A DNA stretch of 51,774 nucleotides from Clostridium sp. CAG:288 (GCA_000437395.1 FR898170.1:1-51774); one strand, 5' to 3'. Numbered from the stretch's first letter, positions 24,772-39,835 are shown. The notes: generated by a model not told the origin, from the letters alone. Made by a program: numbers and translations.

Positions 24772-26537
24772 TCACCTCTTTTTATTTCTTCAACAATTTC
24801 TTTATAAATTTCATATATTTTAGATGGTATTGGTTTAATGATTACATCTTTATCATTAATTAATGTTGGATCGACATCATTGTTTGAAGAATAAATATAA
24901 ACAATTTTTGATCCAATTGTTTTTAAAATTCTTTGTTTGAATTCATCAAACTTTTCTTTTGAATAGTAATCATTAAATATAAATAAATGTTTATTTTTTG
25001 ATTTGTAATGTGATGAATAATCATTTCTTTCAACTTCTTCAAAAATATTTTCCGCTATACACAAAAGTCCATCAACTTTTTCTACTAAACTATATCGTGC
25101 TTGCTCAGTGTTGTTTTCATCCTTAACAAAATCTGTTTTAAAATAAAATAAATTATTTGGTAAACCTTCACTATATTTTGTTGCATCAGGCCTAATTCCA
25201 CTTATGACTGTTTTTAATCGAGGATAAGTTACGCCAGTGCAAATATTATTTTCATTATTAGTGCATAGAATAAATTTACGATGACCGCCATCTTCTTTAT
25301 TTAGCTCCATTACTGCTTGTCCAGTTGTTCCAGAACCAGCAAAAAAATCAAGGACTGTAAAATTGTTATTATGTTGTTTTAAATCGTAATTATAATATAA
25401 ACTTAATAAATATTTTATCAATGAAACTGGTTTAGGATAAGAAAATATATTTTGTGTAATTATATTACTTAATTCGTTACTACCCTCTTCATTTACACCT
25501 ACTTTTGTTTTAAATCTGTTGATTGAACATAAAGGGTTATTAGTATTTGTAAAAATTAATTGTTTTGGAGATTCATTTGTTGTTTTTCCTAAATGGTAAA
25601 CTGTTCTAATTGCAAAACCATCAGATTTAATCCAAAATGTTGTTCCTTTGTTTATTTCTTCATCAATTGTTTTTTGCGACCATCTAGATTTGAATTTTAA
25701 AATTAGATCATTTGCATTTAGACTATTCTTAATTATGACAGGTTTTATAAGAAGATATGATTCATTCTTAGAAGTTTTATATGTTCCATCTTTTAAATTA
25801 AATTTAACTGTTCCTTTTTTGAATGTTAATATGTTTTCTTTATTGCTTGCGTTAAATAATGGCGCATCTATTAAATCAGTTTTAACTTTCTCAACTAATA
25901 ATTCTTTTAAAGATCCATTATCGCTATTAAATAACTTCTTAGCGTAACATAAAATATATTCGCAATTAGAATAGTAATTTATCTTTTGTCTTCCAAAATG
26001 TTGTGTTTTTTCCCAACAAAAGTTTGTTATGAAATTATTTTCACCAAAAATAGAATCACACAAGAGCTTTAAATTTGCTTGTTCTTTATCATCAATAGAA
26101 ATAAAAATTATACCATCTTTTTTCAATAGTTCTTTTGCAAGCACAAGTCTTTTTGATATCATATTTAGCCACTTTGAATGTCTATAACAATCTTCTTTAT
26201 CGACAAATTTATCGTTATAAGAAAAATCATTATGCCCTGTGTTATACGGAGGATCAATGTAAATAATATCAATAGTTTCTTTAGCCACAAAATTTAGAGC
26301 AGTCAAAGCATGATAATTGTCGCCTTCAATAAGAATATTATTTTCTCCTTCATTACATATTATTTTTTTATCTTCTTCTTGAACTAATAAAGGAATATTA
26401 TTTTCACAATGTAAAACAACATCTTCTTTTGTATCTTCTTTATCCCATACTAATCCATATTTGTTTAGAAATTTCAATTTAGATTCTAATTCAATTATTC
26501 TTTTTTCTAAATCTTCGTAGCTTTTTTTCTTATCCAT
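24768..26537 (-). CDS. mod: Type III restriction-modification N6-adenine DNA methyltransferase, Mod subunit
   Basis: 589 aa; motif IV IYIDPPYNTG precedes motif I VLDFFAGSGTTG (beta-class order typical of Type III Mod); no separate specificity gene. Confidence 0.8.
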   Translation of the reverse strand: MDKKKSYEDLEKRIIELESKLKFLNKYGLVWDKEDTKEDVVLHCENNIPLLVQEEDKKIICNEGENNILIEGDNYHALTALNFVAKETIDIIYIDPPYNTGHNDFSYNDKFVDKEDCYRHSKWLNMISKRLVLAKELLKKDGIIFISIDDKEQANLKLLCDSIFGENNFITNFCWEKTQHFGRQKINYYSNCEYILCYAKKLFNSDNGSLKELLVEKVKTDLIDAPLFNASNKENILTFKKGTVKFNLKDGTYKTSKNESYLLIKPVIIKNSLNANDLILKFKSRWSQKTIDEEINKGTTFWIKSDGFAIRTVYHLGKTTNESPKQLIFTNTNNPLCSINRFKTKVGVNEEGSNELSNIITQNIFSYPKPVSLIKYLLSLYYNYDLKQHNNNFTVLDFFAGSGTTGQAVMELNKEDGGHRKFILCTNNENNICTGVTYPRLKTVISGIRPDATKYSEGLPNNLFYFKTDFVKDENNTEQARYSLVEKVDGLLCIAENIFEEVERNDYSSHYKSKNKHLFIFNDYYSKEKFDEFKQRILKTIGSKIVYIYSSNNDVDPTLINDKDVIIKPIPSKIYEIYKEIVEEIKRGE

Positions 26538-26558
26538 TTATATTATTGCTCCATTTTT

Positions 26559-26667
26559 GTACACCTTTAAAAACTTCTAAAAATGGACAAATTTTGACTA
26601 AAAAATGAAGATTTAATGAGAATTTATGCTATAATTTTAAATATGAACTAGGTACTATAAGGTGTAC
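26559..26667. repeat. 9-bp inverted repeat pair (gtacacctt / aaggtgtac) in the mod-recombinase divergent intergenic region; possible recombinase site or operator
   Basis: gtacacctt at 26559-26567 and its exact reverse complement at 26659-26667; second copy sits in a local palindrome ggtac..gtacc. Confidence 0.3.
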
Positions 26668-26709
26668 CTTTATAAACTACCAATAATAATTGAAATTTGA
26701 CTTTATAAC

Positions 26710-27348
26710 TTGTTTTTAAGCATATATACGCATACGGAGGTAAAGCACATGAAGTATGCATATGTTAGAGTATCAACAGCATCGCAAAACATAGATAGAC
26801 AGATGGAAGAAATGTTTAGACAAGATATTGAATTCAAAAATATCTTTATCGATTATCAATCTGGTAAAGATTTTGAAAGAAAAAATTATCAAAAGTTAAT
26901 AAAGAGATTAAAAAAAGATGATCTATTAGTTATTAAATCAATAGATCGCCTTGGTAGAGATTATAATATGATTTTAGATGAGTGGAAAAAGATAACTAAA
27001 ATAATTGAAGCAGATATTATGGTTATTGATATGCCTTTATTAGATACACGTGTTGAAGGTAAGAATTTAGTTGGTAAGTTTATAAGTGATATTGTTTTAC
27101 AAGTATTATCTTTTGTTGCTCAGAATGAACGTGAAAATATAAAACAAAGGCAAGCGGAAGGTATTAGAATAGCTAAAGCTAAAGGAGTTCATATGGGAAG
27201 ACCTAATTATGTTTTACCTAATAATTATGAACATGTTATAAATAAATATATTAAACGTGAAATTAATAACAAAGAAGCTCAACAATTATTAAATATGTCT
27301 AGAGGAACGTTCTTTAAATATTTAAAAATATATAAAGAAAAAAGATAA
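26710..27348 (+). CDS. serine site-specific recombinase (resolvase/invertase family)
   Basis: 212 aa; N-terminal catalytic motif MKYAYVRVSTASQNIDRQ; DRLGRD box; C-terminal HTH. Confidence 0.8.
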   Translation: MFLSIYTHTEVKHMKYAYVRVSTASQNIDRQMEEMFRQDIEFKNIFIDYQSGKDFERKNYQKLIKRLKKDDLLVIKSIDRLGRDYNMILDEWKKITKIIEADIMVIDMPLLDTRVEGKNLVGKFISDIVLQVLSFVAQNERENIKQRQAEGIRIAKAKGVHMGRPNYVLPNNYEHVINKYIKREINNKEAQQLLNMSRGTFFKYLKIYKEKR

Positions 27349-30080: not shown

Positions 30081-31205
30081 CTACTCTTTATTATTCCTTT
30101 TAGAAGTTAAAGATGAAGTTAATTGAGTTAAAATATCTCCACCAGTTGAAAGGTTGATATTTCCAACTTTTTCACATATTCTCTCAACATATTCAAGTTC
30201 TTTGAGCTTGTATAATGTTTCGTTTTCATCCATTAATCTAGCTGTATTTAAAAGAGATCTTGTTGAAGCAACTTCTTCTCTACGAGAGATAACATTGGCT
30301 TGAGCTTTCTTTTCTGCTACTAAAACAGTGTTCATGATATCTCTTATCTCACCTGGAAGAATAATATCTTTGACGGATACACTCTCGATATCAAGATATA
30401 GTTCTTTGCCTTTTTCTTTAATAGTGTCTGATAAGAATTTAGATACTTCGTTTTTAGTAGCTAAAATGGTATCAAACGTTTTATCGCCAACGTATTCCCT
30501 TAAAGCTAATTGAATAGCGACGTATAATTGATTCTTATAGTCGTCTATTTCTGTAGCTGCTTTAATATAGTCAGTAATTTTATAATTACAAACACAATTG
30601 ATTCGTAAGGTTACTTTGTCGCTAGTTAAAATCTCTTGTCCGACAACATCTTGTTGTACTAAACAAGTCTTCATTTTTATAACTTCAACAGGACTTTCTT
30701 TACTCTTTAAGTAATAATATTCGCCTGGATTGAGAGTTTTTATAAACTTTTCTTTAATGAATAACAATCCAATTTCCTTTTTAGAAATAGAATAGTAATC
30801 AAAGCAATCGTCTAATTCAAAGCAATCATAAAGATATTCTGGAAAGTCTTCAGGCAATTCTGGATTGGATAAATCGAGTGTTAAGAATGTATTTTCACGA
30901 TCGATATTCCAAAAGAAATGTTTACCTGGATAAACGATATTTGCAAAATTACCGTTGACAAAATGAAGTGTTAACTCACCTGATTTTGCAATTACTTTTG
31001 TGACTAATTTATTAAAATTTTCGTCTGAAGTAAAGATACTTATATCAGTATCTTCGTTTTCAACTTTGATTTCATCATCTGAAATTTTAGCAAGCTCAAA
31101 AGATTTACCACCAATAGTGGAATACTTACCTGCATCGACCATTTTAATAAACTTTCCTTTCTTAAATAAGAAACCTTTAAAACCTTCTTTAACTAATACT
31201 TTCAT
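30081..31205 (-). CDS. SPFH/band-7 (stomatin-prohibitin-flotillin-like) domain protein
   Basis: 374 aa; core QDVVGQEILTSDKVTLRINCVCNYKITD fits the SPFH Q..TKDNV.V.VDAVV.YRV.D pattern; C-terminal coiled-coil-like tail. Confidence 0.5.
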   Translation of the reverse strand: MKVLVKEGFKGFLFKKGKFIKMVDAGKYSTIGGKSFELAKISDDEIKVENEDTDISIFTSDENFNKLVTKVIAKSGELTLHFVNGNFANIVYPGKHFFWNIDRENTFLTLDLSNPELPEDFPEYLYDCFELDDCFDYYSISKKEIGLLFIKEKFIKTLNPGEYYYLKSKESPVEVIKMKTCLVQQDVVGQEILTSDKVTLRINCVCNYKITDYIKAATEIDDYKNQLYVAIQLALREYVGDKTFDTILATKNEVSKFLSDTIKEKGKELYLDIESVSVKDIILPGEIRDIMNTVLVAEKKAQANVISRREEVASTRSLLNTARLMDENETLYKLKELEYVERICEKVGNINLSTGGDILTQLTSSLTSKRNNKE

Positions 31206-31566
31206 AAAATCCTCCTAATTAAATAAAATATATATTAATCCACTCCCTTAATGGAAAAATATCAAAAAAAAAATAATCCTTTATAAAAACTAAGCGGTTA
31301 TTGATTTAGTAGTAACGCTTTAAAGCGGATATGCTAGATATTGGCTTTGATTAATTGCTACGATATCCTCGCAAAGCAAAGCCTAGTTTTTATTGCTTAG
31401 TATAATTAATTAACTAATGTTAAATAATTATTAAGCTAGGATTATTTAATAGTGATCGAAGTGCCAGTTAATTTTAACAGCCTGAAATGATCATAGAATT
31501 GTGACAAAATTCTTTAAGATTAATGTGTTTTTGTTTCCATAACCGTTGGATAATAATCTTTATTTT

Positions 31567-31593
31567 TGATTATTATGTTGGAATCGAACCAAC
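31567..31593 (-). other. isolated tRNA 3'-end fragment (T-arm GTTGG-TTCGATT-CCAAC + acceptor 3' strand), no 5' half; candidate integrase att core
   Basis: minus-strand reads GTTGGTTCGATTCCAACATAATAAT containing canonical GGTTCGATTCC T-loop with perfect 5-bp stem; no D-arm, anticodon arm or matching acceptor 5' strand in the next 90 nt. Confidence 0.45.
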
Positions 31594-31905
31594 TAATGAG
31601 CTTTTAGATTAACAATTGCACAAAGAGTAAAGATAGTTACTCTTCTAAGCACATAAAATTCAGTATGCACTTTGGTATACCTTGTGTACTGTGATTTATG
31701 TTTGAAAAATCCACCTTATCGAATGTTATATGCTTCTACTAATATATAAACAAAATTCAACAATGTCAATATATTTTGAAAAAAATGTCTAATTAAATTA
31801 GAAACTTCAAAATATTAAATAAAAAAGATAATGATACAAGACTAATCATTATCCATATTAATAACTTTATCAGCCATAAATTTAATTTTATATTTACTTA
31901 AAATT

Positions 31906-32088
31906 TTATTTTTGGTCTTTAATTTTATTATTAGTTTTTTCCAATGCGTCTAATTCATCAAGCTCTTTTCTATATTTTCCTAGCATAATAATTCTATGTT
32001 TAAGCTCTGTAAAAGTCATTATTCTATCTTGACATCCACCAACGAATAAAGCTGCCATATCTTTTTCAATTTCTTCTCTTGTTCTCAT
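31906..32088 (-). CDS. hypothetical small protein
   Basis: 60-aa ORF in intergenic space, charged/helical composition. Confidence 0.3.
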   Translation of the reverse strand: MRTREEIEKDMAALFVGGCQDRIMTFTELKHRIIMLGKYRKELDELDALEKTNNKIKDQK

Positions 32089-32206
32089 CAGTAATTACCT
32101 TCTTAAATGGTTGAATATGTGTTTCATAATTCGTTTAAAGTAAAATTTTTGTAACTTAAAAACTTATTAAGTTTTTAAAGCTATAAATTAATTTTCTAAA
32201 TATAAA

Positions 32207-32563
32207 TTACCAGTCGTTAAGTGTATATCTTTTAAAACTTTTAAACTTGCTTACATCGAAAGCAAAAATGTATTTAAACTTTACATATGGAGTATTAGGC
32301 ATAAATATATCCAAAGGAGAACATTCAGTTTTTGGATCTACTATTTCTTCACAGTCAACATAAGTTTTACATCCCATGGTGCAATCACCATCTTCAATAT
32401 CTTCATATTCATAAACATTATCAAAATAAGTAATATCCATTAGCTCAAAATCAACATCGTCAATTTTAACTTCTCTTCCAACATACTTAGACATAATTTC
32501 TTCAACATCTTTTTCTTCTAAAATTTTGTAAGTAGTTGTAGTAATGACTTTCTTTTCGATCAT
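32207..32563 (-). CDS. hypothetical protein
   Basis: 118-aa acidic protein; aggag-like RBS upstream. Confidence 0.4.
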   Translation of the reverse strand: MIEKKVITTTTYKILEEKDVEEIMSKYVGREVKIDDVDFELMDITYFDNVYEYEDIEDGDCTMGCKTYVDCEEIVDPKTECSPLDIFMPNTPYVKFKYIFAFDVSKFKSFKRYTLNDW

Positions 32564-32847
32564 ATTTTTTACCTCTTTTGCTTATACTTATATTTTAAAT
32601 GTTGCTTGTTATTATTTGTAATAATTATCAAAAGTGTGCATGTATGAATACATTTATAGCTAAATACTATCTTTATAATTTGTTTAAATATATGTTTCAT
32701 AAATAATATCTTTAATTTTTCTCAAATCATTATTATTTATCTTTAACATGTTGATAACAAATTAAAAAGGCAGAAAACAGTGATAAATACTGAGTTTCTG
32801 CCTATAATTTTTGTTTATAGTTTCCAAAAGTTTAATATGTAAGCTAT

Positions 32848-33058: not shown

Positions 33059-33838
33059 TTATTCTCCTTTTAATATCTTAAATCCAATATCTGGATTGAG
33101 ATCCAATTCTTTAAATACTCTCTTAAGTATGTCATCTTTATTAGAAATACTAGAATCATTTTTAAGTGTATTATAGAGCTCTATTTCATCGTTACGCAAA
33201 TAGTTAAGTACAGTTTTTCCAAGTGGTATGAATTCACTTTCTTTTAATGATTCCATTTGTTGTTTCCACTTATATGCTTGTTCACATTGTTTTTGTTCTT
33301 TTTCATATAAATGTGCATACTTTGAACGAATAATATTTGCATAGTACCCACGCATTGTAATTGTTCCGTCTTCTGTAACCATGTCGTAATTATAAACAAC
33401 TTTGCCATTAATTACTTTTTCAATTTTAGCATCGACATAATTAACATTTTTCATTATTAAACCAATTCCCATGCGAGATGAAGTCCAGAAATTGTTAATG
33501 ATTAAATATAAAACATCGTATTCTTTGTTATAGTTATCTTCTTGTGATTTGAACACATTATAAAAAGAGCTATAGTGTTTTCTTAAATCGTCATCTTTAT
33601 TAATTGAAAAATATGGATAACTATTTTTCTTATAATAAAAGTTTCCATCAGATAGACTAAAAAAATTGTAAGCTTCATTAATAGATATTCCTAATCTATA
33701 AGATATATAATTTGCAAAACTAGCTGTCTCTTCTTCGAGTTTTTTTGAGAGATTTTCATGTGCTATTATAGAGTCTCTTAGATCAATATCCCACTGAGTA
33801 TAGCGTTTGAATAAATTAATATAATTTTCTTCTTCCAT
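33059..33838 (-). CDS. hypothetical protein
   Basis: 259 aa, no recognised motif; co-oriented and tightly linked to zinc-ribbon gene. Confidence 0.5.
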   Translation of the reverse strand: MEEENYINLFKRYTQWDIDLRDSIIAHENLSKKLEEETASFANYISYRLGISINEAYNFFSLSDGNFYYKKNSYPYFSINKDDDLRKHYSSFYNVFKSQEDNYNKEYDVLYLIINNFWTSSRMGIGLIMKNVNYVDAKIEKVINGKVVYNYDMVTEDGTITMRGYYANIIRSKYAHLYEKEQKQCEQAYKWKQQMESLKESEFIPLGKTVLNYLRNDEIELYNTLKNDSSISNKDDILKRVFKELDLNPDIGFKILKGE

Positions 33839-34044
33839 AATACCCCATTAATAGAATTTAACTCTAAATAATATGTTTTCAAAAATATTTAAGCCTGACC
33901 TGCTTTAAAATTACTTTTGATTTATTTAAATTATAGCATAATTATTTTTTAATACATATTTTTGTTGCTTATATTATTAGAGATAAAATTCTATTTTTAA
34001 TATTTTTTATGATTACTATCGTTATAAAATTCAGTTTTTAATCA

Positions 34045-34140
34045 ATGAATTGTAAACAACTTGTAAAGAAATTAAAATTTATCAAAAAAGTGAGCAAAAA
34101 CATATGAAATCTTACGGTTATATATAGTGAAGGGGCAAAT
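34045..34140 (+). repeat. dispersed intergenic repeat, copy 1 (full length)
   Basis: tgaattgtaaacaacttgtaaagaaattaaaatttatcaaaaaagtgagcaaaaacatatgaaatcttacggttatatatagtgaaggggcaaat; near-identical to copy 2. Confidence 0.8.
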
Positions 34141-34282
34141 AATAGGGGGTTATAATTAAATCAAGTAAGTTATATCTTTGTTTTATTTGTAATTAAAGAT
34201 AATAAAAATAGAACAATTTATCTCTAATAAGTGTTTATTTTTTACAAAAATATAATATAATATAAACAGAAGGAGGTACGTT

Positions 34283-35329
34283 ATGATTAGTAAAAATATT
34301 AAGTATTATCGTTTAATAAAATCAATGAGTAAAAAGGATTTAGCAGAAGCTGTCAATGTTACTCCAATGGCTATATCAAATTATGAAAGTGGCAAAAGAA
34401 AACCTGAAATCGATATTTTGAAAAAAATAGCTAATGTTTTAGGGGTTCGTGTAGTTGATTTCCTTACTGTAAGAAATGAAAACATTCAGTTTAGTCATAA
34501 TGAATTTAGAAAGAGTTCCTCCTTACCTAAAAATACCCAAGAATATATTTTTGAAAGTATAGAAGAATACTTTAGTCGCTTTATGGATGCGGTTGAAATA
34601 TTAGGAGGAGATGTTTTACCTAATTTTCCAAAATGCCATTATTTAGAGATAACTAAAGATGTTGAAAAAGATGCTTTAAACCTTAGAAGATATTTAGGAT
34701 TTGCTGATAATGGACCTATAGATGATTTAATTGGTAGCCTAGAAAATAAAGGCTTTTTAGTTTTATTAAAAGAAATTGATGATGATAAATTTTCTGGTAT
34801 TAATGGATTTGTAAATAATCATCCATATATTATGTTAAATAAAAAAATGACTATTGAACGTAACAGATCAACTATCGCACATGAATTAACTCATCTTATG
34901 TTTAATTGGGATAATGTTGATATGAACGAAAAAGAAATTGAAAACTATGCAACTGCTATTGGTGGAGCTTTCTTGTTTCCAAAAGAAGATGCCATAAGAG
35001 AACTAGGAGTTCATCGTAAATCTGTCAGTAAAGATATGATATTAGTTGCTACTGAATATGGTATCTCAATGTTTTTATTAGCTAAAAGAGCTGAAATTTT
35101 AAAAATAATATCTGAATCTTCTTCAAGAAAATTTTATATTTTGGCATCAGAAAAAGGCTGGAGAAAAAATGAGCCAAGTCGTATTGAAAAATTAGAAAGA
35201 CCTATATTATTTGAGCAACTTGTCTATAGAGCAATTAACGAAAATGAGATTAGTATTCAACGTGGAGCAGAGTTACTTAAAAAGCCTTATGATGAAGTAG
35301 CTAATGATTGCCTTTTTGATAATAAATAA
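34283..35329 (+). CDS. XRE-family HTH fused to ImmA/IrrE-type zinc metallopeptidase (COG2856-like)
   Basis: 348 aa; N-terminal HTH YYRLIKSMSKKDLAEAVNVTPMAISNYESGKRKP; HExxH motif TIAHELTHLMF. Confidence 0.75.
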   Translation: MISKNIKYYRLIKSMSKKDLAEAVNVTPMAISNYESGKRKPEIDILKKIANVLGVRVVDFLTVRNENIQFSHNEFRKSSSLPKNTQEYIFESIEEYFSRFMDAVEILGGDVLPNFPKCHYLEITKDVEKDALNLRRYLGFADNGPIDDLIGSLENKGFLVLLKEIDDDKFSGINGFVNNHPYIMLNKKMTIERNRSTIAHELTHLMFNWDNVDMNEKEIENYATAIGGAFLFPKEDAIRELGVHRKSVSKDMILVATEYGISMFLLAKRAEILKIISESSSRKFYILASEKGWRKNEPSRIEKLERPILFEQLVYRAINENEISIQRGAELLKKPYDEVANDCLFDNK

Positions 35330-35334
35330 TATAT

Positions 35335-35874
35335 ATGGAATTTATTAGTAGTGATACAAATGTTTGGATTGATTTTTGCACAATAGATAAACTCTATTTA
35401 CCTTTTAAGTTACCATATACATATATCATGAATAATGATGCAATTGAGGATGAATTATTAAATCCAAAAGATTTAAAAGATCAATTAATACAATTAGGAC
35501 TTAAAGAAGTTGAATTAGATATTGATGAATTATTCCTGGCTGAAGAATATGGATGCAAATATAAAAAGCTATCTATATATGATAGAATCGCTTTAGCTAT
35601 AGCAAAAAATCGCCATATTTTATTATTAACAGGCGATTTAAACTTAAGAAAAGCTGCACAGAAAGAATCAGTAGAAATAATAGGAACACTAGGAATACTA
35701 GATAGACTATTTGGATATAACTATATAACTGAAGCTGAATTCGATGAATGCATAAGAAAATTAAAAGATCTAAATTTTGTCAGTGATATTAGATTACCTG
35801 CAAATGAATTAGAAGAAAGACTGACAATAAGAAAAAAAGAAGAAATAAAGACTAATTTCAAAGTTGCCATTTAA
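35335..35874 (+). CDS. PIN-domain protein (putative nuclease partner of HTH-ImmA protein)
   Basis: 179 aa; N-terminal SSDTNVWIDF (first PIN Asp), later HILLLTGD (T.D motif); 5-nt gap after ImmA-like gene. Confidence 0.55.
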   Translation: MEFISSDTNVWIDFCTIDKLYLPFKLPYTYIMNNDAIEDELLNPKDLKDQLIQLGLKEVELDIDELFLAEEYGCKYKKLSIYDRIALAIAKNRHILLLTGDLNLRKAAQKESVEIIGTLGILDRLFGYNYITEAEFDECIRKLKDLNFVSDIRLPANELEERLTIRKKEEIKTNFKVAI

Positions 35875-35898
35875 TATTATGCTAATATGTAATTAATT

Positions 35899-35937
35899 AA
35901 AAAGGCAAAATTGATATTTAATTTTGCCTATATATTT
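35899..35937. terminator. bidirectional terminator between convergent PIN and 136-aa genes
   Basis: stem aggcaaaatt/aattttgcct, loop gatattt, flanked by A-run and T-run. Confidence 0.55.
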
Positions 35938-35940
35938 GTT

Positions 35941-36351
35941 CTATTTAATCCATTTACCATTTTTTAAGTCAATAAATTGATGTAATTTCATTTTTGCCTT
36001 AAAATCATTACCATATTCACCGTTCAAAGTTTGTTCATCTGTTTTAAAAGAAATATCATAATACCTTCCATTTTTTGTTTTTGGAATTAAATTATTTTCT
36101 AAGAAGAAATTAATTACTTTTCTATGTGCATTTAAATTGTCATATTCTATATAAAAACAGGCCACGCCATCATTATCATTTGTATGTTTACACGTATCAA
36201 CAATATTTTCTTCTATAGCTTTTTTACAAATTTTAGATATAAAGTCTTTATTATTAAAGAAATACATCCATTTTCCAATTTTATTAGTGTTATGATTAGT
36301 CCAATTATCACTAATATAAAATATATAACCTCTTAAATTTAAAGTTTTCAT
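35941..36351 (-). CDS. hypothetical protein (partner of mini-RNase III-like gene)
   Basis: 136 aa; overlaps upstream gene by 4 nt (operon); no recognised motif. Confidence 0.45.
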   Translation of the reverse strand: MKTLNLRGYIFYISDNWTNHNTNKIGKWMYFFNNKDFISKICKKAIEENIVDTCKHTNDNDGVACFYIEYDNLNAHRKVINFFLENNLIPKTKNGRYYDISFKTDEQTLNGEYGNDFKAKMKLHQFIDLKNGKWIK

Positions 36352-36830
36352 TGTTTTCTCTCTTTTTTATCAATATAATTCATCCAGCTACATATCAATT
36401 CTTTTAATTTATAAAGATTACCTGTGTTTATATAAATAGCAGCAATTATAGCTTCAACACATGTAGCTATATATTTGCACTTATTTCCTTTTTTAGATTT
36501 ATTTTTTTCATAGTCATAATTATTAACTCTATTACCATCAGTTTTAATCTTTTTTATAAGATCATATTTTTCAGCAATTAACACTAGAGCTTTGTTAGAT
36601 TCATATTTTTTCTTTTCTTCTGTAGGTTTTTCAATTTTATTATCATATAGAATTTCCATTATGCACATTTTTAAAATAGCATCACCATATGTTGCTAATT
36701 CAAAATTAGTTTTATTTTTAGGCAAATTTTCATGATGTTCTTTACTGTATACACTCTTATATGATTTATCAGTAAGAGCATACTCAATTAATTCGTTATC
36801 TTTCATTATCCATTCTTCAAATAAGTCCAT
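36348..36830 (-). CDS. mini-RNase III-like protein (RNase III catalytic domain only, no dsRBD)
   Basis: 160 aa; ELATYGDAILKMCIMEILY matches RNase III signature E.LEFLGDA(V/I)L and Mini-III LAYIGDAIFEV; second catalytic segment ATCVEAIIAAIYINTG matches ..EAL.GAIYLD.G. Confidence 0.55.
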   Translation of the reverse strand: MDLFEEWIMKDNELIEYALTDKSYKSVYSKEHHENLPKNKTNFELATYGDAILKMCIMEILYDNKIEKPTEEKKKYESNKALVLIAEKYDLIKKIKTDGNRVNNYDYEKNKSKKGNKCKYIATCVEAIIAAIYINTGNLYKLKELICSWMNYIDKKERKQ

Positions 36831-37074
36831 GCTTTATCCTCCTTTAATTGCATTCGTCATTTGTTCATTCATTTCTTTAACTTTTAGCTCAATTGTATCT
36901 ATACCAACTTAATAACCTCCAATTAACTATATTATAAAATAATTAACGACAAAAAATGGATGTTATCGTTCGAGGATTTTCGACAATTATATATAAAATA
37001 AAGACACATTTAAGTTAAATATAGTTATGATTTTACTTTTGTTGAAATGAATAATTTGATACGCTAATTGGAGC

Positions 37075-37172
37075 TGAATTGTAAATAACTTGTAAAGAAA
37101 TTAAAATTTATCAAAAAAGTGAGCAAAAACATATGAAATCTTACGGTTATATATAGTGAAAGGGGATAAATA
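37075..37172 (+). repeat. dispersed intergenic repeat, copy 2 (full length)
   Basis: tgaattgtaaataacttgtaaagaaattaaaatttatcaaaaaagtgagcaaaaacatatgaaatcttacggttatatatagtgaaaggggataaat. Confidence 0.8.
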
Positions 37173-37357
37173 TAGAAAAATATGATTATTCATATTAATT
37201 ATTAAGTTCCATCTTCTAAATATAACCTCCATCTTATGAACTTGTTAATATTTATTCCTCTTCAAACCTCCTTTTGATAATAAGACCCATAAGTTTTCCA
37301 ATTAACATGGTGCCACTTATGGGTTTTATTGTTTTATTCAACAACCTATAAAATATG

Positions 37358-37442
37358 TTCAATTGTAAAAAATTTAAAATTTATCAAAAAAGTGAGCAAA
37401 AACACATGAAATCTTATGGTTATATATAGTGAAGGGGGAAAG
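37358..37442 (+). repeat. dispersed intergenic repeat, copy 3 (lacks internal ~13 nt of copies 1-2)
   Basis: ttcaattgtaaaaaatttaaaatttatcaaaaaagtgagcaaaaacacatgaaatcttatggttatatatagtgaagggggaaag. Confidence 0.75.
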
Positions 37443-37495
37443 ATTAATCTTTTTACAAATTTAGTTTCGTAATTTGTTCATAAATAATTAGAATA

Positions 37496-38137
37496 TTATA
37501 CTTTGATTTTTCTATGAGTATTAATTTTTTCTAGCATTTTTTTGAAAGTCTCTATTTTTTTATCACCTTTTCCGAAAAAATCTAAAGCACTACATTTTAT
37601 AGTTTCTTCTTTATTTTCTAAAAGATACATGTATATATATGGATTTTCATAGAAATCTTTGTAAATAAAGCTTAATTGTTTTTCAAATAGTAAAAATGAA
37701 TTATTGTTATATACAGCTCCATTTGATTTCCCATATTCACATAGTTTTATAAACTTTGATGAATATAAATTTGTGATAAAGCGATTCATTATTTCTTTTT
37801 TATCTTCTCCAATTGAGTGTACAGATTCAAGTTTACTTTTATACCAGATATGATAATATATTGAATCAATTATTTTAGTTATATCTTTGAATCCAATTAT
37901 TTCTTTTGAAAACGATAATAATAAATTATTTATATAAATTAAATCTCCATCTGAAAGGACTTTAGGATTATAAGTAAACATATCATTTTCATTTACATTA
38001 AAATTAGAATCGGCATATTTAACTTCTGGAAATCCAAATAAATTTCTATCTTGAATAATTGCTGGCCAAATATCAGGACAATCTAATTCGAGTATTTTGT
38101 TCGATCGCATATCAAATACATTTTGATGATTATACAT
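37496..38137 (-). CDS. hypothetical protein
   Basis: 213 aa; directly abuts (no gap) the upstream DUF4238-like gene; no recognised motif. Confidence 0.45.
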   Translation of the reverse strand: MYNHQNVFDMRSNKILELDCPDIWPAIIQDRNLFGFPEVKYADSNFNVNENDMFTYNPKVLSDGDLIYINNLLLSFSKEIIGFKDITKIIDSIYYHIWYKSKLESVHSIGEDKKEIMNRFITNLYSSKFIKLCEYGKSNGAVYNNNSFLLFEKQLSFIYKDFYENPYIYMYLLENKEETIKCSALDFFGKGDKKIETFKKMLEKINTHRKIKV

Positions 38138-38944
38138 TTAAAAAAAAGGATTAATCATTACAATGCTTCTTTTCGAATTCAAAACGAATATATTGTAATT
38201 TTCGTACATTACGATGCAATTGGCAAAATGTTCAACATATTGACTTTGATTTTCTTTAAATATTTTATGGTACAAATATGAATATTTAGATAGATCTAGA
38301 CCATTTGTAATCATATGAAATCCTTCATATTCGCTACACATTCCACAATCAGATAAAATAAATTCTTTATTATCTGGAGTATCCCAAAATGCGATATATG
38401 ATTTTAAAAAAGGTAACGCCCAAGCAATCATTTCTTTTGTAGCTAAAGGATTATTAGCCATTTCTGAAATATTTGTAGCTTGAGCAAAAACTGTTAATGC
38501 ACGATGAAATAATTCTTTATTATTAAGATTTAATGAATCTGATGAAGGTAGATTTTTATAATCATCATAAAAATTAATGTATTTTTCGGAACGTTTTTTG
38601 AAACTTGTTTTTAGTAGTTTAGAAAAACAATCTTCATCTAAAGTCCTTATGCTGCAAATAAGCATATATCTTTTAAGCAATTCTATTTCCACTCTAGATA
38701 ATTCTATTGTATCTTTTTCTAATATTTTTTGGTCAAGTAAATTAGAAATTCTACTTTCAATATTAAAATTCATTAATTTTTCAATTTCTTTAGTATAAAT
38801 ATCATTTTTATAGAAAACGTTTTTGGATTTTTTGTTCGCTGCTATTTGCTCTTTTTCGATATCAAAAATATTTATAGGGTTAGAAAACCTTTTTATAATT
38901 AGTTGAGAAACATAATGATTTTTCATTTGCAATCCTCCTGCCAT
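38138..38944 (-). CDS. DUF4238-like protein
   Basis: 268 aa; N-terminal KNHYVSQLIIKRFSNP resembles the HY.PQ.YL+.F start of DUF4238, a family common in defense islands. Confidence 0.4.
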   Translation of the reverse strand: MAGGLQMKNHYVSQLIIKRFSNPINIFDIEKEQIAANKKSKNVFYKNDIYTKEIEKLMNFNIESRISNLLDQKILEKDTIELSRVEIELLKRYMLICSIRTLDEDCFSKLLKTSFKKRSEKYINFYDDYKNLPSSDSLNLNNKELFHRALTVFAQATNISEMANNPLATKEMIAWALPFLKSYIAFWDTPDNKEFILSDCGMCSEYEGFHMITNGLDLSKYSYLYHKIFKENQSQYVEHFANCIVMYENYNIFVLNSKRSIVMINPFF

Positions 38945-39104
38945 GTTTATTAAACAAAATTAATTTATATAATTTATTATGAATTAATTCAAATATATTT
39001 TCAATATCTATCAATTAATAATTATTAGCTTCCTATTCGATTAAGATCTTATTTGAGTAACTTTTACTATAAAATATTAGAACTATAAATTTATATTCAA
39101 ATAA

Positions 39105-39136
39105 AAAAGGAAGACCTTTTAGTCTTCCCTTTTTTG
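39105..39136. terminator. bidirectional rho-independent terminator
   Basis: aaaaaaggaagac-ctttta-gtcttcccttttttg; stem ggaagac/gtcttcc flanked by A-run and T-run. Confidence 0.6.
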
Positions 39137-39277
39137 TGCAAGCCCGCTTGCCTCGCTTACTATAATAAAAATTATAATAATCTAATACACCCGATCTCTC
39201 GGTGCACTACCTTTATGGTCAAAATTATAGCATTTATTTTTAATATATCAAGTTTATTAAAATTATAAATGAAATGC

Positions 39278-39352
39278 AAATAAATTAAAATTTGTTAAAA
39301 AAGTGAGCAAAACTAGTGAGAATTTTACGGTTATATATAGTAAAGGGGAAAA
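39278..39352 (+). repeat. dispersed intergenic repeat, copy 4 (divergent, 5'-truncated); abuts stop codon of gene 39353..39835
   Basis: aaataaattaaaatttgttaaaaaagtgagcaaaactagtgagaattttacggttatatatagtaaaggggaaaatt. Confidence 0.7.
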
Positions 39353-39835
39353 TTACTCAAAAGCCATATCTCCATTTTTTAAATATTCATAATAATCGTC
39401 TTCATCATAGTTGATTATTTCATATTTTTCGTTTTCTAATCTTTTTATTAACTTTTCAAATTCAGCTTTTTTCATCCAATATAGATTTCCATCATTGTAT
39501 TTTCTACTATAATAATCTTCTTTGATAATCATATATTGTTTTTTACTATCGTTGACTAAAACAATGAATTTGGAATAAAGATATACATCTCTTACCATAA
39601 AGTAATAAGCTTTAAATTCTTTTCTTTGTTGCCACAACTCATCACAGAATTTAAATCCTTTAATATAGTTTTCGATTGGAGTATTATCTTCATTATTAAG
39701 ATAATATTCTTCTTTAAAAAAAGACATACCATCTAAGTAATCTGAGATAATAAAAGTTATTAGTTCTTCAACTAGATTCAAGCTACTTTTTTGTTTTTGA
39801 TGAGAATCCACCATTAAGTATCCAACCATAAACAC
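39353..39835 (-). CDS. hypothetical protein (possibly the C-terminal part of a disrupted longer gene)
   Basis: 160 aa; upstream 200 nt contains a short in-frame ORF (ATG at 40039, RBS ggagg) ending at TAG 39938 and an overlapping open frame, suggesting frameshift/nonsense disruption. Confidence 0.4.
   Translation of the reverse strand: MFMVGYLMVDSHQKQKSSLNLVEELITFIISDYLDGMSFFKEEYYLNNEDNTPIENYIKGFKFCDELWQQRKEFKAYYFMVRDVYLYSKFIVLVNDSKKQYMIIKEDYYSRKYNDGNLYWMKKAEFEKLIKRLENEKYEIINYDEDDYYEYLKNGDMAFE

What the first reader, a model, noticed from the sequence alone, without database searches (positions are those of the whole stretch)
34045..39352. Family of four ~75-95 bp direct repeats punctuating small gene modules (cassette-array-like organisation)
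Near-identical sequences (core taaaatttatcaaaaaagtgagcaaaaacatatgaaatcttacggttatatatagtgaagggg) occur at 34045-34140, 37075-37172, 37358-37442 and 39278-39352, all in the same orientation. Copies 1 and 2 are ~97% identical over ~95 nt; copy 3 carries an internal ~13-nt deletion (one unit of a ttgtaaa duplication); copy 4 is more diverged. Copy 4 abuts the stop codon of minus-strand gene 39353..39835, and copy 3 lies 54 nt 3' of the 38944->37496 gene pair. Copies 2 and 3 flank a gene-less 185-nt segment. The intervening modules (HTH-ImmA/PIN, mini-RNase III pair, DUF4238 pair, 160-aa gene) are unrelated to one another. The repeats are too long and too irregularly spaced for CRISPR. Orientation is constant on the DNA rather than relative to genes, which argues against a simple shared promoter and for recombination sites (integron attC-like or shufflon-like cassette boundaries), a mobile intergenic repeat, or a common 3' UTR/RNA element.
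Basis: seen in the sequence. Interest (0 to 1): 0.7.

Follow-up and report, generated by a model that had tools for sequence, protein, structure and literature searches.

The report
Repeated promoter-like module bounding defence cassettes
A roughly 90-base unstructured DNA module, most likely a portable promoter, is scattered through the genome of an uncultured low-GC human-gut bacterium and marks the points where anti-phage gene modules are swapped, gained or lost between strains.

Summary
Four direct copies of a 76-90 nt repeat (R) lie on the + strand at 34046-34136, 37074-37165, 37348-37438 and 39259-39348, where chance predicts none.

R is not local. The same element occurs at least 10 times per ~1 Mb in human-gut metagenome contigs of this lineage, in about 35 flank contexts and in both chromosomal orientations.

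R has no hairpin or dyad symmetry, so it is neither attC-like nor a structured RNA. Its anatomy is:
- one to three phased TTGTAAA boxes;
- an invariant block, AAAAAGTGAGCAAAA;
- a 16-nt spacer of free sequence and fixed length;
- an invariant block, CTTACGGTTATATATAGTGAAGGGG.

Similarity stops at about the point where transcription would start.

R sits directly upstream of two sigma-factor genes, of the Rosmer-like RmrA gene and of a TerB-like gene. In most arrays, however, it faces the 3' end of a convergent defence module.

Strain comparison shows that R-bounded units are inserted, deleted and exchanged (R versus R-186 nt-R alleles; different modules at one locus).

Best reading: a propagated, probably alternative-sigma-dependent promoter module whose copies act as portable homology for cassette shuffling. 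A dedicated integron-like recombination system is not excluded, but no evidence supports it.

The parts
34046..34136 (+). R copy 1 (two-box form). TTGTAAA boxes at 34050-34056 and 34061-34067. Block A, AAAAAAGTGAGCAAAAAC, at 34084-34101. Variable spacer at about 34102-34110. Block B, CTTACGGTTATATATAGTGAAGGGG, at 34111-34135. Candidate -35 GCAAAA at 34094-34099, -10 GTTATA at 34117-34122, inferred start about 34127-34130.
   Evidence: block structure
37074..37165 (+). R copy 2 (two-box form), 98% identical to copy 1. Its left flank is the upstream region of the mini-RNase III module.
   Evidence: in other strains the same left flank is joined to four different right flanks
37166..37357 (+). 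The 'gene-less segment'. The first ~100 nt are the decayed 3' end of a family-cl0 gene. The next ~70 nt hold a + strand hairpin plus T-run (37285-37324, then TTTTATTGTTTT). The whole 186-192 nt plus one R behaves as an insertion/deletion unit between strains.
   Evidence: blastn; sequences; presence/absence alleles (window vs L046 and window vs L027)
37348..37438 (+). R copy 3 (one-box form), followed at once by a short hairpin, AAAGATTAATCTTT+TT, and then the 3' end of the DUF4238 gene.
39259..39348 (+). R copy 4, a diverged subfamily (degenerate boxes, spacer CTAGTGAGAATT, TAGTAAAGGGG). It is always linked to this type of cl0 gene, whose stop codon lies 4 nt away.
   Evidence: same variant in L018, L026, L043, L051, L059, L068
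34283..35874 (+). Module 1a: a Rosmer-like pair. HTH + M78 peptidase (RmrA-like, 34283-35329) and a PIN-domain protein (35335-35874), co-directional with R1, which ends 146 nt upstream. A bidirectional terminator lies at 35903-35929.
   Evidence: Pfam; PADLOC RmrA 6e-41; terminator; homology to other strains ends at 35463
35941..36830 (-). Module 1b: a mini-RNase III gene (36348-36830) plus a 136-aa partner of unknown family (35941-36351). In L062, L011 and L037 the mini-III gene is instead followed by TIR and caspase genes.
37496..38944 (-). Module 2: a single DUF4238 gene inactivated by a TAA at 38138-38140. It converges on R3.
   Evidence: 98% identical intact copy at L076 1985-3433
39353..39835 (-). 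Module 3: an N-terminally truncated member of orphan family cl0 (full length 213-228 aa, normally preceded by the 289-aa orphan cl3). It converges on R4.
   Evidence: clustering; no Pfam, NCBIfam, PHROG or PADLOC hit

Best explanation
R is a portable regulatory module covering about -85 to +10 of a rightward promoter. It consists of one to three phased TTGTAAA boxes (a likely activator site), an A-tract/GTGAGCAAAA block at the -35 position, a 16-17 nt spacer of free sequence, and a CTTACGGTTATATATAG block carrying the -10 (GTTATA or TATATA). Transcription would start in TAGTGAAGGGG. R does not fit the housekeeping promoter of this organism, so it is probably read by an alternative sigma factor. 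One candidate is the lineage-specific 180-aa sigma-like protein whose own gene R precedes.

The module has been copied to many intergenic sites. Because the copies are 80-100% identical, recombination between them deletes, inserts and exchanges the DNA lying between copies. The agent is most simply RecA-type homologous recombination and gene conversion. This produces the strain-variable, cassette-like arrays of anti-phage modules.

In arrays the promoter usually points into the 3' end of the neighbouring convergent module. There it would make antisense or colliding transcripts rather than mRNA.

Shown: the repeat family, its anatomy, its lack of structure, its genome-wide spread, its position in front of sigma genes, and strain-to-strain gain, loss and exchange at R. 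Inferred: promoter activity and start site, the sigma factor involved, homologous rather than site-specific recombination, and any antisense role.
For: 1. Two invariant blocks are separated by a spacer whose sequence varies (at least 18 alleles) but whose length is 16 nt in 58 of 59 flank combinations. Conservation drops to background right after GTGAAGGGG and left of AATTGTAAAC.
2. Long and short variants differ by a 10-nt indel between the boxes and Block A, one helical turn, which keeps the boxes on the same face of the helix.
3. R lies on the same strand 42 nt before the ATG (RBS AAAGGAGG) of a sigma-like gene (HTH_16 + Sigma70_r4, TIGR02937 6e-8) in 7 loci. It also lies before the 80%-identical homologue in a second species, where Block A is unchanged while the 5' UTR has diverged.
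4. In L007 an ECF sigma gene starts 6 nt after R's GGGGAG. The left neighbour is divergent, so R is the only place its promoter can be.
5. R also precedes the RmrA-like gene (143-146 nt, 8 loci) and a TerB-like operon (maps).
6. With a start at TAG|TG, GTTATA falls at -12 to -7. GTTATA is the -10 of BotR-type sigma factors, and the SRQ motif that marks that group (PMC4031146) is present in the 180-aa protein as ISRQKV.
7. This organism's ordinary promoters look different: TTGCAT-17-TGATATATT and ATGCTATAAT.
8. Recombination at R: the window's single R1 corresponds to R-186 nt-R in L027, and the window's R2-186 nt-R3 corresponds to a single R in L046. The same left flank is joined to 3-4 different right flanks and vice versa. 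One locus carries five different module sets. Patchy sharing of spacer and end variants among copies at orthologous sites points to gene conversion.
Against: There are no expression data. The -35 position reads GCAAAA, not the TTTACA recognised by TcdR-group sigma factors, and there is no TTGACA-like hexamer. By consensus scan, therefore, only the two-box long variant scores as a sigma-70-type promoter (TTGTAA-17-TAAAAT), and that arrangement is absent from copies 3 and 4.

A regulon normally shows diverged promoters that share only short motifs. Here all ~110 copies are complete 76-90 nt units, which looks more like a copied element.

In about 12 of 19 distinct contexts the next gene downstream is convergent, often only 3-57 nt away. 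That is odd for a promoter unless antisense transcription is the point.

Not every module junction in the window is an R: homology with L026 and L018 begins at 39066, about 200 nt left of copy 4.
Confidence: 0.5

Rival explanations
1. R is the recombination site of a dedicated, integron-like cassette system. A site-specific recombinase excises R-bounded modules as circles and reinserts them at other R copies, and R's promoter-like features are secondary.
For: The geometry matches integron cassettes. Copies in an array are co-oriented, the genes are mostly on one strand, and R abuts the stop codon of the preceding gene by 3-57 nt. R versus R-unit-R alleles are what Campbell-type insertion of a circle carrying one R would give. 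Cassettes are defence genes and vary between strains. A small serine recombinase (26710-27348, Resolvase 7e-23, nearest NCBIfam model Mpi invertase) lies 7 kb from the array, and its family recurs near arrays in L062 and L020.
Against: R has no dyad symmetry, no inverted-repeat arms and no hairpin on either strand. No recombinase gene is consistently adjacent to arrays in about 570 kb of flanks, and the most common neighbours (cl0, cl3) are orphans with no recombinase signature. The resolvase sits next to a type III restriction-modification pair, not next to an R. Some R subfamilies share a further ~35-60 nt of left flank, so the element's edge is not fixed. R also stands alone in core intergenic regions, including upstream of a sigma gene conserved across species. 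Some junctions lie outside R.
Confidence: 0.12
2. R is a non-autonomous mobile element (MITE/REP-like), or the end of a transposon, that spreads by transposition and only incidentally flanks genes.
For: R has high copy number, near-identity between copies, both chromosomal orientations and intergenic location, and assemblies break at it. A tight 98-100% identical subgroup, 'R + 100 nt', occurs in at least 6 different contexts, which suggests recent spread.
Against: There are no terminal inverted repeats, no hairpin and no target-site duplication visible at the flanks. No transposase family is associated with it. It has no match in phage, plasmid or viral collections. Conservation is block-wise, with a free spacer, rather than uniform.
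Confidence: 0.1
3. R acts on the minus strand, either as a shared 3' UTR/RNA element of the cassette mRNAs or as a leftward promoter. Its left end, ATTGTA, reads TACAAT on the minus strand, and the boxes read TTTACA.
For: In arrays R lies between the stop of one minus-strand gene and the start of the next. In L020 the next start codon is only 26 nt beyond R's left end. TACAAT and TTTACA hexamers are present on the minus strand (sequence).
Against: The minus-strand RNA is even less structured (z +0.5 to +1.6). The hexamers are not at a workable spacing from each other, and any -10 partner of TTTACA would fall outside R in non-conserved sequence. Several left neighbours have their own canonical promoter (TGCTATAAT for 33059-33838 and for the small RNA at 39224-39251). 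In L007 a minus-strand terminator follows R on the left. In core contexts no minus-strand gene precedes R.
Confidence: 0.12
4. The four copies are only the product of a recent local segmental duplication.
For: Copies 1 and 2 are 98% identical.
Against: Flanks differ immediately on both sides of every copy. The family is genome-wide and shared by several strains and at least two or three species-level bins.
Confidence: 0.01

Closest known systems
Putative mobile promoters / promoter propagation (Matus-Garcia, Nijveen & van Passel 2012, PMC3488235)
   Same: A 50-100 nt intergenic sequence of at least 80% identity is found upstream of non-homologous genes within one genome and shared by related genomes. 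It has no IS or MITE features.
   Different: Most copies here do not precede a co-directional gene but face the 3' end of a convergent module. Copies are organised in co-oriented arrays that delimit strain-variable defence modules. The module looks like an alternative-sigma promoter with upstream boxes.
Integron gene-cassette arrays and attC sites (including the Vibrio cholerae repeats of chromosomal integrons)
   Same: Co-oriented repeats of similar length separate unrelated, mostly promoter-poor accessory or defence genes. The repeat abuts the stop codon, and content varies between strains.
   Different: R has no imperfect-palindrome structure, and its sequence rather than its fold is conserved. 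No intI/attI/Pc platform was found. R also occurs singly all over the chromosome, and some junctions are not at R.
Promoters of TcdR/BotR/TetR/UviA-type (group 5) sigma factors of clostridia (PMC4031146; PMC10223161)
   Same: A small (~180 aa) sigma factor with an SRQ motif in region 4.2, whose gene is preceded by the promoter type it may read. The -10 is GTTATA. The sigma is associated with accessory or conflict loci.
   Different: The -35 position of R is GCAAAA, not TTTACA. The sigma-like protein matches only general sigma-70 models weakly (TIGR02937 6e-8, below its cut-off). Nothing has been tested experimentally.
3'-overlapping antisense RNAs of Bacillus type I toxin-antitoxin loci (txpA/RatA, bsrG/SR4; from general knowledge)
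   Same: A convergent promoter is placed so that its transcript overlaps the 3' end of the neighbouring gene. RNase III-family genes are present nearby.
   Different: The targets here are ordinary-sized defence proteins, not small membrane toxins. One and the same promoter module is reused for many unrelated targets. No antisense RNA has been shown.

Membership tests
Integron attC site | Imperfect inverted repeats (R''-L'' / L'-R') that fold the single strand into a hairpin with extrahelical bases | tested here: not met
   Single-strand folds of all four copies on both strands give z between -1.0 and +1.6. RNAalifold of 14 diverse copies gives -1.45 kcal/mol and no compensatory pair. No internal inverted repeat is shared by the copies.
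Integron attC site | Structure conserved while sequence is free to vary between cassettes | tested here: not met
   The opposite holds: 76-90 nt of sequence are 78-100% conserved over about 110 copies.
Integron attC site | A platform with an intI tyrosine recombinase, attI and Pc at one end of the array | tested here: inconclusive
   No integrase-family hit appeared among the ORFs scanned around arrays, but not every ORF of every locus was scanned and no complete genome was available.
Integron attC site | Co-oriented cassettes, each an ORF followed closely by the site | tested here: met
   In arrays R copies are all direct and lie 3-57 nt after the stop of the preceding minus-strand gene.
Putative mobile promoter (PMP) | A 50-100 nt intergenic sequence, at least 80% identical, upstream of non-homologous genes in one genome | tested here: met
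   R lies on the same strand upstream of a sigma-like gene, an ECF sigma gene, an RmrA-like gene and a TerB-like gene. There are at least 8-11 exact-pattern copies per long contig set.
Putative mobile promoter (PMP) | Actual promoter activity | not testable with these tools
   The evidence is positional only: in L007 R is the only available place for the promoter of the downstream sigma gene.
TcdR-group (group 5) sigma-dependent promoter | -10 element GTTATA (BotR type) at the correct distance from the start | tested here: met
   GTTATA is invariant in Block B. It falls at -12 to -7 if transcription starts at TAG|TG, just ahead of the SD-like AAGGGG used by the L007 gene (motif from PMC4031146).
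TcdR-group (group 5) sigma-dependent promoter | -35 element TTTACA | tested here: not met
   Seventeen nt upstream of GTTATA the sequence is GCAAAA. TTTACA occurs only on the opposite strand, in the boxes.
TcdR-group (group 5) sigma-dependent promoter | A cognate small sigma factor with the SRQ motif in region 4.2 | tested here: inconclusive
   The 180-aa protein downstream of R has ...LNISRQKVSRIL... and Sigma70_r4 (1e-4), HTH_16 (4e-7) and TIGR02937 (6e-8, below cut-off). The best PDB hit is an RNA polymerase sigma factor at E = 0.003.
MITE / REP-type intergenic repeat | Terminal inverted repeats or a palindromic hairpin; target-site duplication | tested here: not met
Shufflon / invertible-promoter system | Sites in inverted orientation, with inversion alleles between strains | tested here: not met
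   All copies within every array are direct. Each of the ~35 contexts was seen in one orientation only.
Known RNA family (Rfam 15) | A covariance-model match | tested here: not met
   No match at gathering score in the whole window, and none at E <= 1 in 33900-39500.

The most novel reading that the evidence does not exclude
R is the recognition site of a so far unknown cassette-capture system in a Gram-positive (Bacilli-class) gut bacterium. It would be a functional analogue of an integron that uses an unstructured, sequence-conserved, ~80-bp double-stranded site and a non-IntI recombinase, for example the nearby Mpi-like serine recombinase or the orphan cl3/cl0 pair. Each site would also carry an outward promoter that controls the neighbouring defence cassette by antisense transcription.
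Probability: 0.1. Interest if true: 0.85.

Novelty: new variant of a known kind. Interest (0 to 1): 0.5.

Why it matters
Defence islands are known to be mosaic, but how modules are exchanged is rarely visible. Here a single conserved ~90-bp module marks many of the exchange points. This gives a concrete and testable handle on how an uncultured gut bacterium reshuffles Rosmer-, AbiD/KAP-, TIR/caspase/mini-RNase III-, DUF4238- and orphan-type modules.

If R is a promoter for a dedicated sigma factor, dozens of unrelated defence modules would be under one common sense or antisense control. That would be a new regulatory layer for anti-phage systems.

R can also be used as a search key. Everything found between two R copies is a candidate defence gene, which includes several orphan families seen here.

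Tried and rejected
- Known RNAs: Rfam at gathering score and at E <= 1, and tRNA/tmRNA, found nothing.
- Structured RNA or attC: single folds, an alignment fold and an inverted-repeat scan found no structure.
- First pattern search: it used the wrong spacing (18 N) and found nothing. It was corrected.
- rRNA promoter idea: tandem R copies sit ahead of about 1 kb without ORFs in L014 and L052. Rfam found only two convergent tRNAs and no rRNA.
- T7-like single-subunit RNA polymerase promoter: ACG..T...TATAG.GA resembles the T7 consensus, but this is a resemblance from memory only. No such polymerase was seen, so the idea was dropped.
- The 185-nt segment as a small-RNA gene: its first 100 nt turned out to be the 3' end of a cl0 gene, so it is better read as a decayed cassette. 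Its + strand terminator is real.
- Mobile-element origin: no match in viral contigs, plasmids or phages.
- Function of the commonest cassette (cl3 + cl0): no Pfam, NCBIfam, PHROG or PADLOC family. cl3 has no homologues outside the lineage. A single-sequence AlphaFold model had pLDDT 41 and was unusable.
- Systematic terminator search downstream of R: only a few contexts were positive, which is not decisive.
- Literature: searches for integron-like defence cassettes and for PF12645 found nothing relevant.
- Crossover mapping inside R: there are too few informative polymorphisms, and orthologous loci are not independent.

Full report
**1. The observation**

The window contains one family of four direct repeats on the + strand:
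- 34046-34135 (reference copy);
- 37075-37164 (98% identical);
- 37348-37437 (82% without gaps);
- 39259-39348 (78%).

A 43-column pattern spanning the two best-conserved blocks matches exactly these four places and none of 100 shuffles. A profile built from about 74 related copies finds no fifth copy in the window.

Three details need correction.
- Copy 3 is not a deletion derivative. The one-box form is a regular variant of the family, and copies 1 and 2 carry an extra TTGTAAA box.
- The 'DUF4238 pair' is one gene cut by an AAA->TAA change at 38138-38140. It is intact in L076, and the same split is seen in L078.
- Only 36348-36830 is an RNase III-domain gene.

**2. Anatomy of the repeat (R)**

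I aligned about 80 distinct copies. From left to right, R consists of:
- one to three boxes of the type (A)TTGTAAA, spaced 11-12 nt apart;
- a linker that exists in a long form and in a form 10 nt shorter;
- Block A, AAAAAAGTGAGCAAAA(A)C;
- a spacer with at least 18 different sequences but a Block A-Block B distance of 16 nt in 58 of 59 flank combinations;
- Block B, CTTACGGTTATATATAGTGAAGGGG.

Similarity to other copies falls to background immediately after GGGG and to the left of AATTGTAAAC. Part of Blocks A and B was fixed by the search pattern. However, the neighbouring unforced positions are equally conserved. In 571 kb of fetched DNA only about seven copies deviate from the pattern, each by a single base.

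R has no secondary structure on either strand:
- z-scores lie between -1.0 and +1.6;
- the consensus fold of 14 diverse copies is -1.45 kcal/mol with no covariation;
- the copies share no internal inverted repeat.

There is no Rfam match, even at E <= 1, and no tRNA.

**3. Distribution**

An exact-pattern scan returned:
- 2 loci in the one-genome-per-species collection, a 'Bacilli bacterium' bin and an 'uncultured Clostridiales' bin;
- 74 loci in metagenome contigs, of which every one that names its source is labelled human-gut metagenome;
- none in viral contigs.

BLAST against plasmids and phages also found nothing.

Single long contigs carry many copies at distant positions and in both orientations. 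Examples are a 540-kb contig with copies at 148, 270-280, 288-298, 432-445 and 476-486 kb, and a 798-kb contig with copies at seven places. Assemblies often break inside R. The window itself corresponds to a 52.5-kb contig seen in three samples (L078).

R is therefore a dispersed, lineage-specific repeat of an uncultured, ~25-30% GC gut bacterium (composition). It is not a local duplication.

**4. What lies next to R**

Using R's own orientation, I found about 35 different right flanks.

A co-directional gene follows in a minority of contexts:
- a 180-aa sigma-like protein, with R ending 42 nt before the ATG and an RBS AAAGGAGG, in 7 loci;
- an ECF sigma gene whose GTG lies 6 nt after R's GGGGAG (L007);
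- the RmrA-like HTH-M78 gene (143-146 nt, 8 loci, including window copy 1);
- a TerB-like operon.

In roughly 12 of 19 distinct contexts the next gene is convergent, and its stop codon is often only 3-57 nt from R.

Within arrays all R copies are co-oriented, and the genes between them are mostly on the other strand. The modules are typical conflict or defence genes:
- a Rosmer-like RmrA + PIN pair;
- AbiD + a KAP NTPase (PDC-S49);
- mini-RNase III with TIR and caspase genes;
- DUF4238;
- HTH-rich operons;
- a methylase-LRR protein;
- several orphan families.

The wider window from about 17 to 51 kb is a defence island. It holds a type III restriction-modification pair, a serine recombinase, an AAA_21 protein, SIR2, SPFH, Abi_2, DUF3800 and DUF2971 genes. 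Only its 34-39.4 kb part contains R.

**5. Evidence that R marks recombination joints**

- Next to the 259-aa gene 33059-33838, the window has a single R1. L027 has R-186 nt-R at the same place. The two homology blocks overlap by exactly one R (window 34058-34145).
- The reverse holds at a second site. The window has R2-186 nt-R3 where L046 has one R between the mini-RNase III flank and the DUF4238 gene.
- The same locus carries different module sets in the window, L062, L027+L076, L006 and L058.
- One left flank (the upstream region of the mini-RNase III module) is joined through R to four different right flanks. One right flank is joined to three different left flanks.
- At orthologous sites in different strains the spacer and end variants of R differ in a patchy way, as expected from gene conversion among copies.

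Two facts argue against a sharply defined element. Some subfamilies share a further 35-60 nt of left flank. And the boundary between the DUF4238 module and the copy-4 block lies about 200 nt to the left of copy 4, not inside it.

The 'gene-less' 192 nt between copies 2 and 3 is a decayed cassette. Its first ~100 nt are the 3' end of a cl0 gene. The rest carries a + strand hairpin with a T-run.

**6. What R most likely is**

The architecture is that of a complete promoter region. It has phased upstream boxes, a one-turn indel that keeps them in phase, and two invariant blocks at a fixed distance with a free spacer. Conservation ends where transcription would begin.

The strongest positional argument is L007. 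The sigma gene there uses the last bases of R as its ribosome-binding site, and its left neighbour is divergent, so its promoter has to be inside R.

The arrangement upstream of the 180-aa sigma-like gene is kept in a second species, where the protein is 80% identical. There Block A is unchanged while the 5' UTR has diverged, and that contig too breaks inside the repeat.

If transcription starts at TAG|TG, the -10 hexamer is GTTATA and the -35 position is GCAAAA. This organism's ordinary promoters look different: TTGCAT-17-TGATATATT before tRNA genes, and ATGCTATAAT before 33059-33838, the resolvase gene and a small RNA. An alternative sigma factor is therefore likely.

GTTATA is the -10 reported for BotR-type, TcdR-group sigma factors, and an SRQ motif in region 4.2 marks that group (PMC4031146). 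The 180-aa protein has ISRQKV. However, the TTTACA -35 of that group is missing. I therefore treat the link as a lead, not as family membership.

Because the copies are near-identical, ordinary homologous recombination is enough to explain the deletions, insertions and exchanges observed. No recombinase was found consistently next to arrays.

**7. What the promoter would do in arrays**

This part is inference. R points into the 3' end of the neighbouring module, often with no room for a terminator. Its transcripts would be antisense to, or collide with, those of the defence genes. That would put many unrelated modules under one common control.

This is geometrically similar to the 3'-overlapping antisense RNAs of Bacillus type I toxin-antitoxin loci (general knowledge). 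No RNA data are available to test it.

**8. Rivals**

- A dedicated integron-like system fits the geometry. It lacks the defining attC structure and any consistent recombinase (confidence 0.12).
- A MITE-like mobile repeat fits the copy number. R has no inverted ends or target duplications (0.10).
- A minus-strand function, as a 3' UTR element or a leftward promoter using TACAAT/TTTACA, is possible for some copies, for example the gene that starts 26 nt from R in L020. It does not explain the core contexts or the block conservation (0.12).
- A simple segmental duplication is refuted.

**9. Comparison with what is known, and verdict**

The closest described category is the 'putative mobile promoter', a 50-100 nt, >=80% identical promoter region found in front of unrelated genes (PMC3488235).

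R differs from that category in two ways. It forms co-oriented arrays that delimit strain-variable defence modules, and it mostly faces convergent genes. It works like an integron array at the level of gene-content variation, but it fails the membership test for attC.

I rate it a new variant of a known kind. It is real, lineage-specific and useful as a marker of defence cassettes. Its mechanism is inferred but unproven. Interest 0.5.

Noticed in passing
window 39095-39251, minus strand: A probable unannotated small RNA gene lies just left of repeat copy 4. It has a near-consensus promoter (TTGATA-16-TATAAT with an upstream TG, 39251-39224). About 118 nt fold into four hairpins (MFE -42.2 kcal/mol, z = -7.0), and the last hairpin is an intrinsic terminator (39128-39109 plus T-run). 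Ten copies occur in two different contexts. The core is invariant and the terminator stem carries compensatory changes. There is no Rfam match.
   Followed up: partly
window 37496-38944 (-): The DUF4238 'gene pair' is a single 482-codon gene inactivated by one AAA->TAA substitution at a T/A homopolymer junction (38138-38140). The same stop is present in the independent assembly L078. The gene is intact in L076.
   Followed up: yes
L010 1355-1897 (also L008, L012, L019, L041, L063, L067, L077): A lineage-restricted 180-aa sigma-like protein (HTH_16 + Sigma70 region 4, with an ISRQKV motif as in TcdR-group sigma factors) sits directly upstream of the conserved rsmB-rlmN-PP2C-kinase-rsgA-rpe operon. 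It is always preceded by the repeat.
   Followed up: partly
window 22423-27348: A type III restriction-modification pair (Res 22423-24771, Mod 24768-26537) lies next to a 212-aa serine recombinase whose best NCBIfam model is the Mpi 'master invertase' family. This could be a phase-variable restriction system. No inverted repeats were examined.
   Followed up: no
window 30137-32722: This segment carries an SPFH/Band-7 gene and three small ORFs. It is an insertion relative to L062 and L027, which have a 92-aa ORF there. The junctions are not at a repeat copy.
   Followed up: partly
window 34283-35874 vs L006, L027, L072: The RmrA-like antitoxin/regulator gene is 98% conserved between strains, but homology ends at 35463, inside the PIN gene. 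In other strains the partner is replaced and an AbiD + KAP-NTPase pair follows. This suggests toxin swapping within a Rosmer-like system.
   Followed up: partly
window 35941-36830 vs L062 9431-11706, L011, L037: The mini-RNase III gene is linked to a 136-aa orphan in the window. In other strains it is linked to a 128-aa protein, a ThsB-like TIR protein and a caspase-family protease. A second mini-RNase III family (cl50) sits in an operon with two HTH proteins. These are candidate defence systems built around mini-III.
   Followed up: no
L020 1591-3111, and 9 other loci: The commonest R-bounded module is a pair of orphan proteins (cl3, 289 aa; cl0, 213-228 aa) with no family in Pfam, NCBIfam, PHROGs or PADLOC and no homologues outside this lineage. 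Decayed 3' ends of cl0 are scattered with the repeat.
   Followed up: partly
window 5640-8009 (+): A 789-aa ORF without any Pfam domain contains four to five diverged internal repeats with a 432-nt period (about 144 aa). It is probably a repetitive surface protein in a sugar-uptake/glycosidase operon.
   Followed up: no
L052 5100-6590 (also L014, L035, L003, L049): Two repeat copies about 370 nt apart are followed by about 1 kb with no ORF of 50 aa or more on either strand. The region contains several hairpins and ends at two convergent tRNA genes. It may hold further non-coding RNA genes.
   Followed up: no
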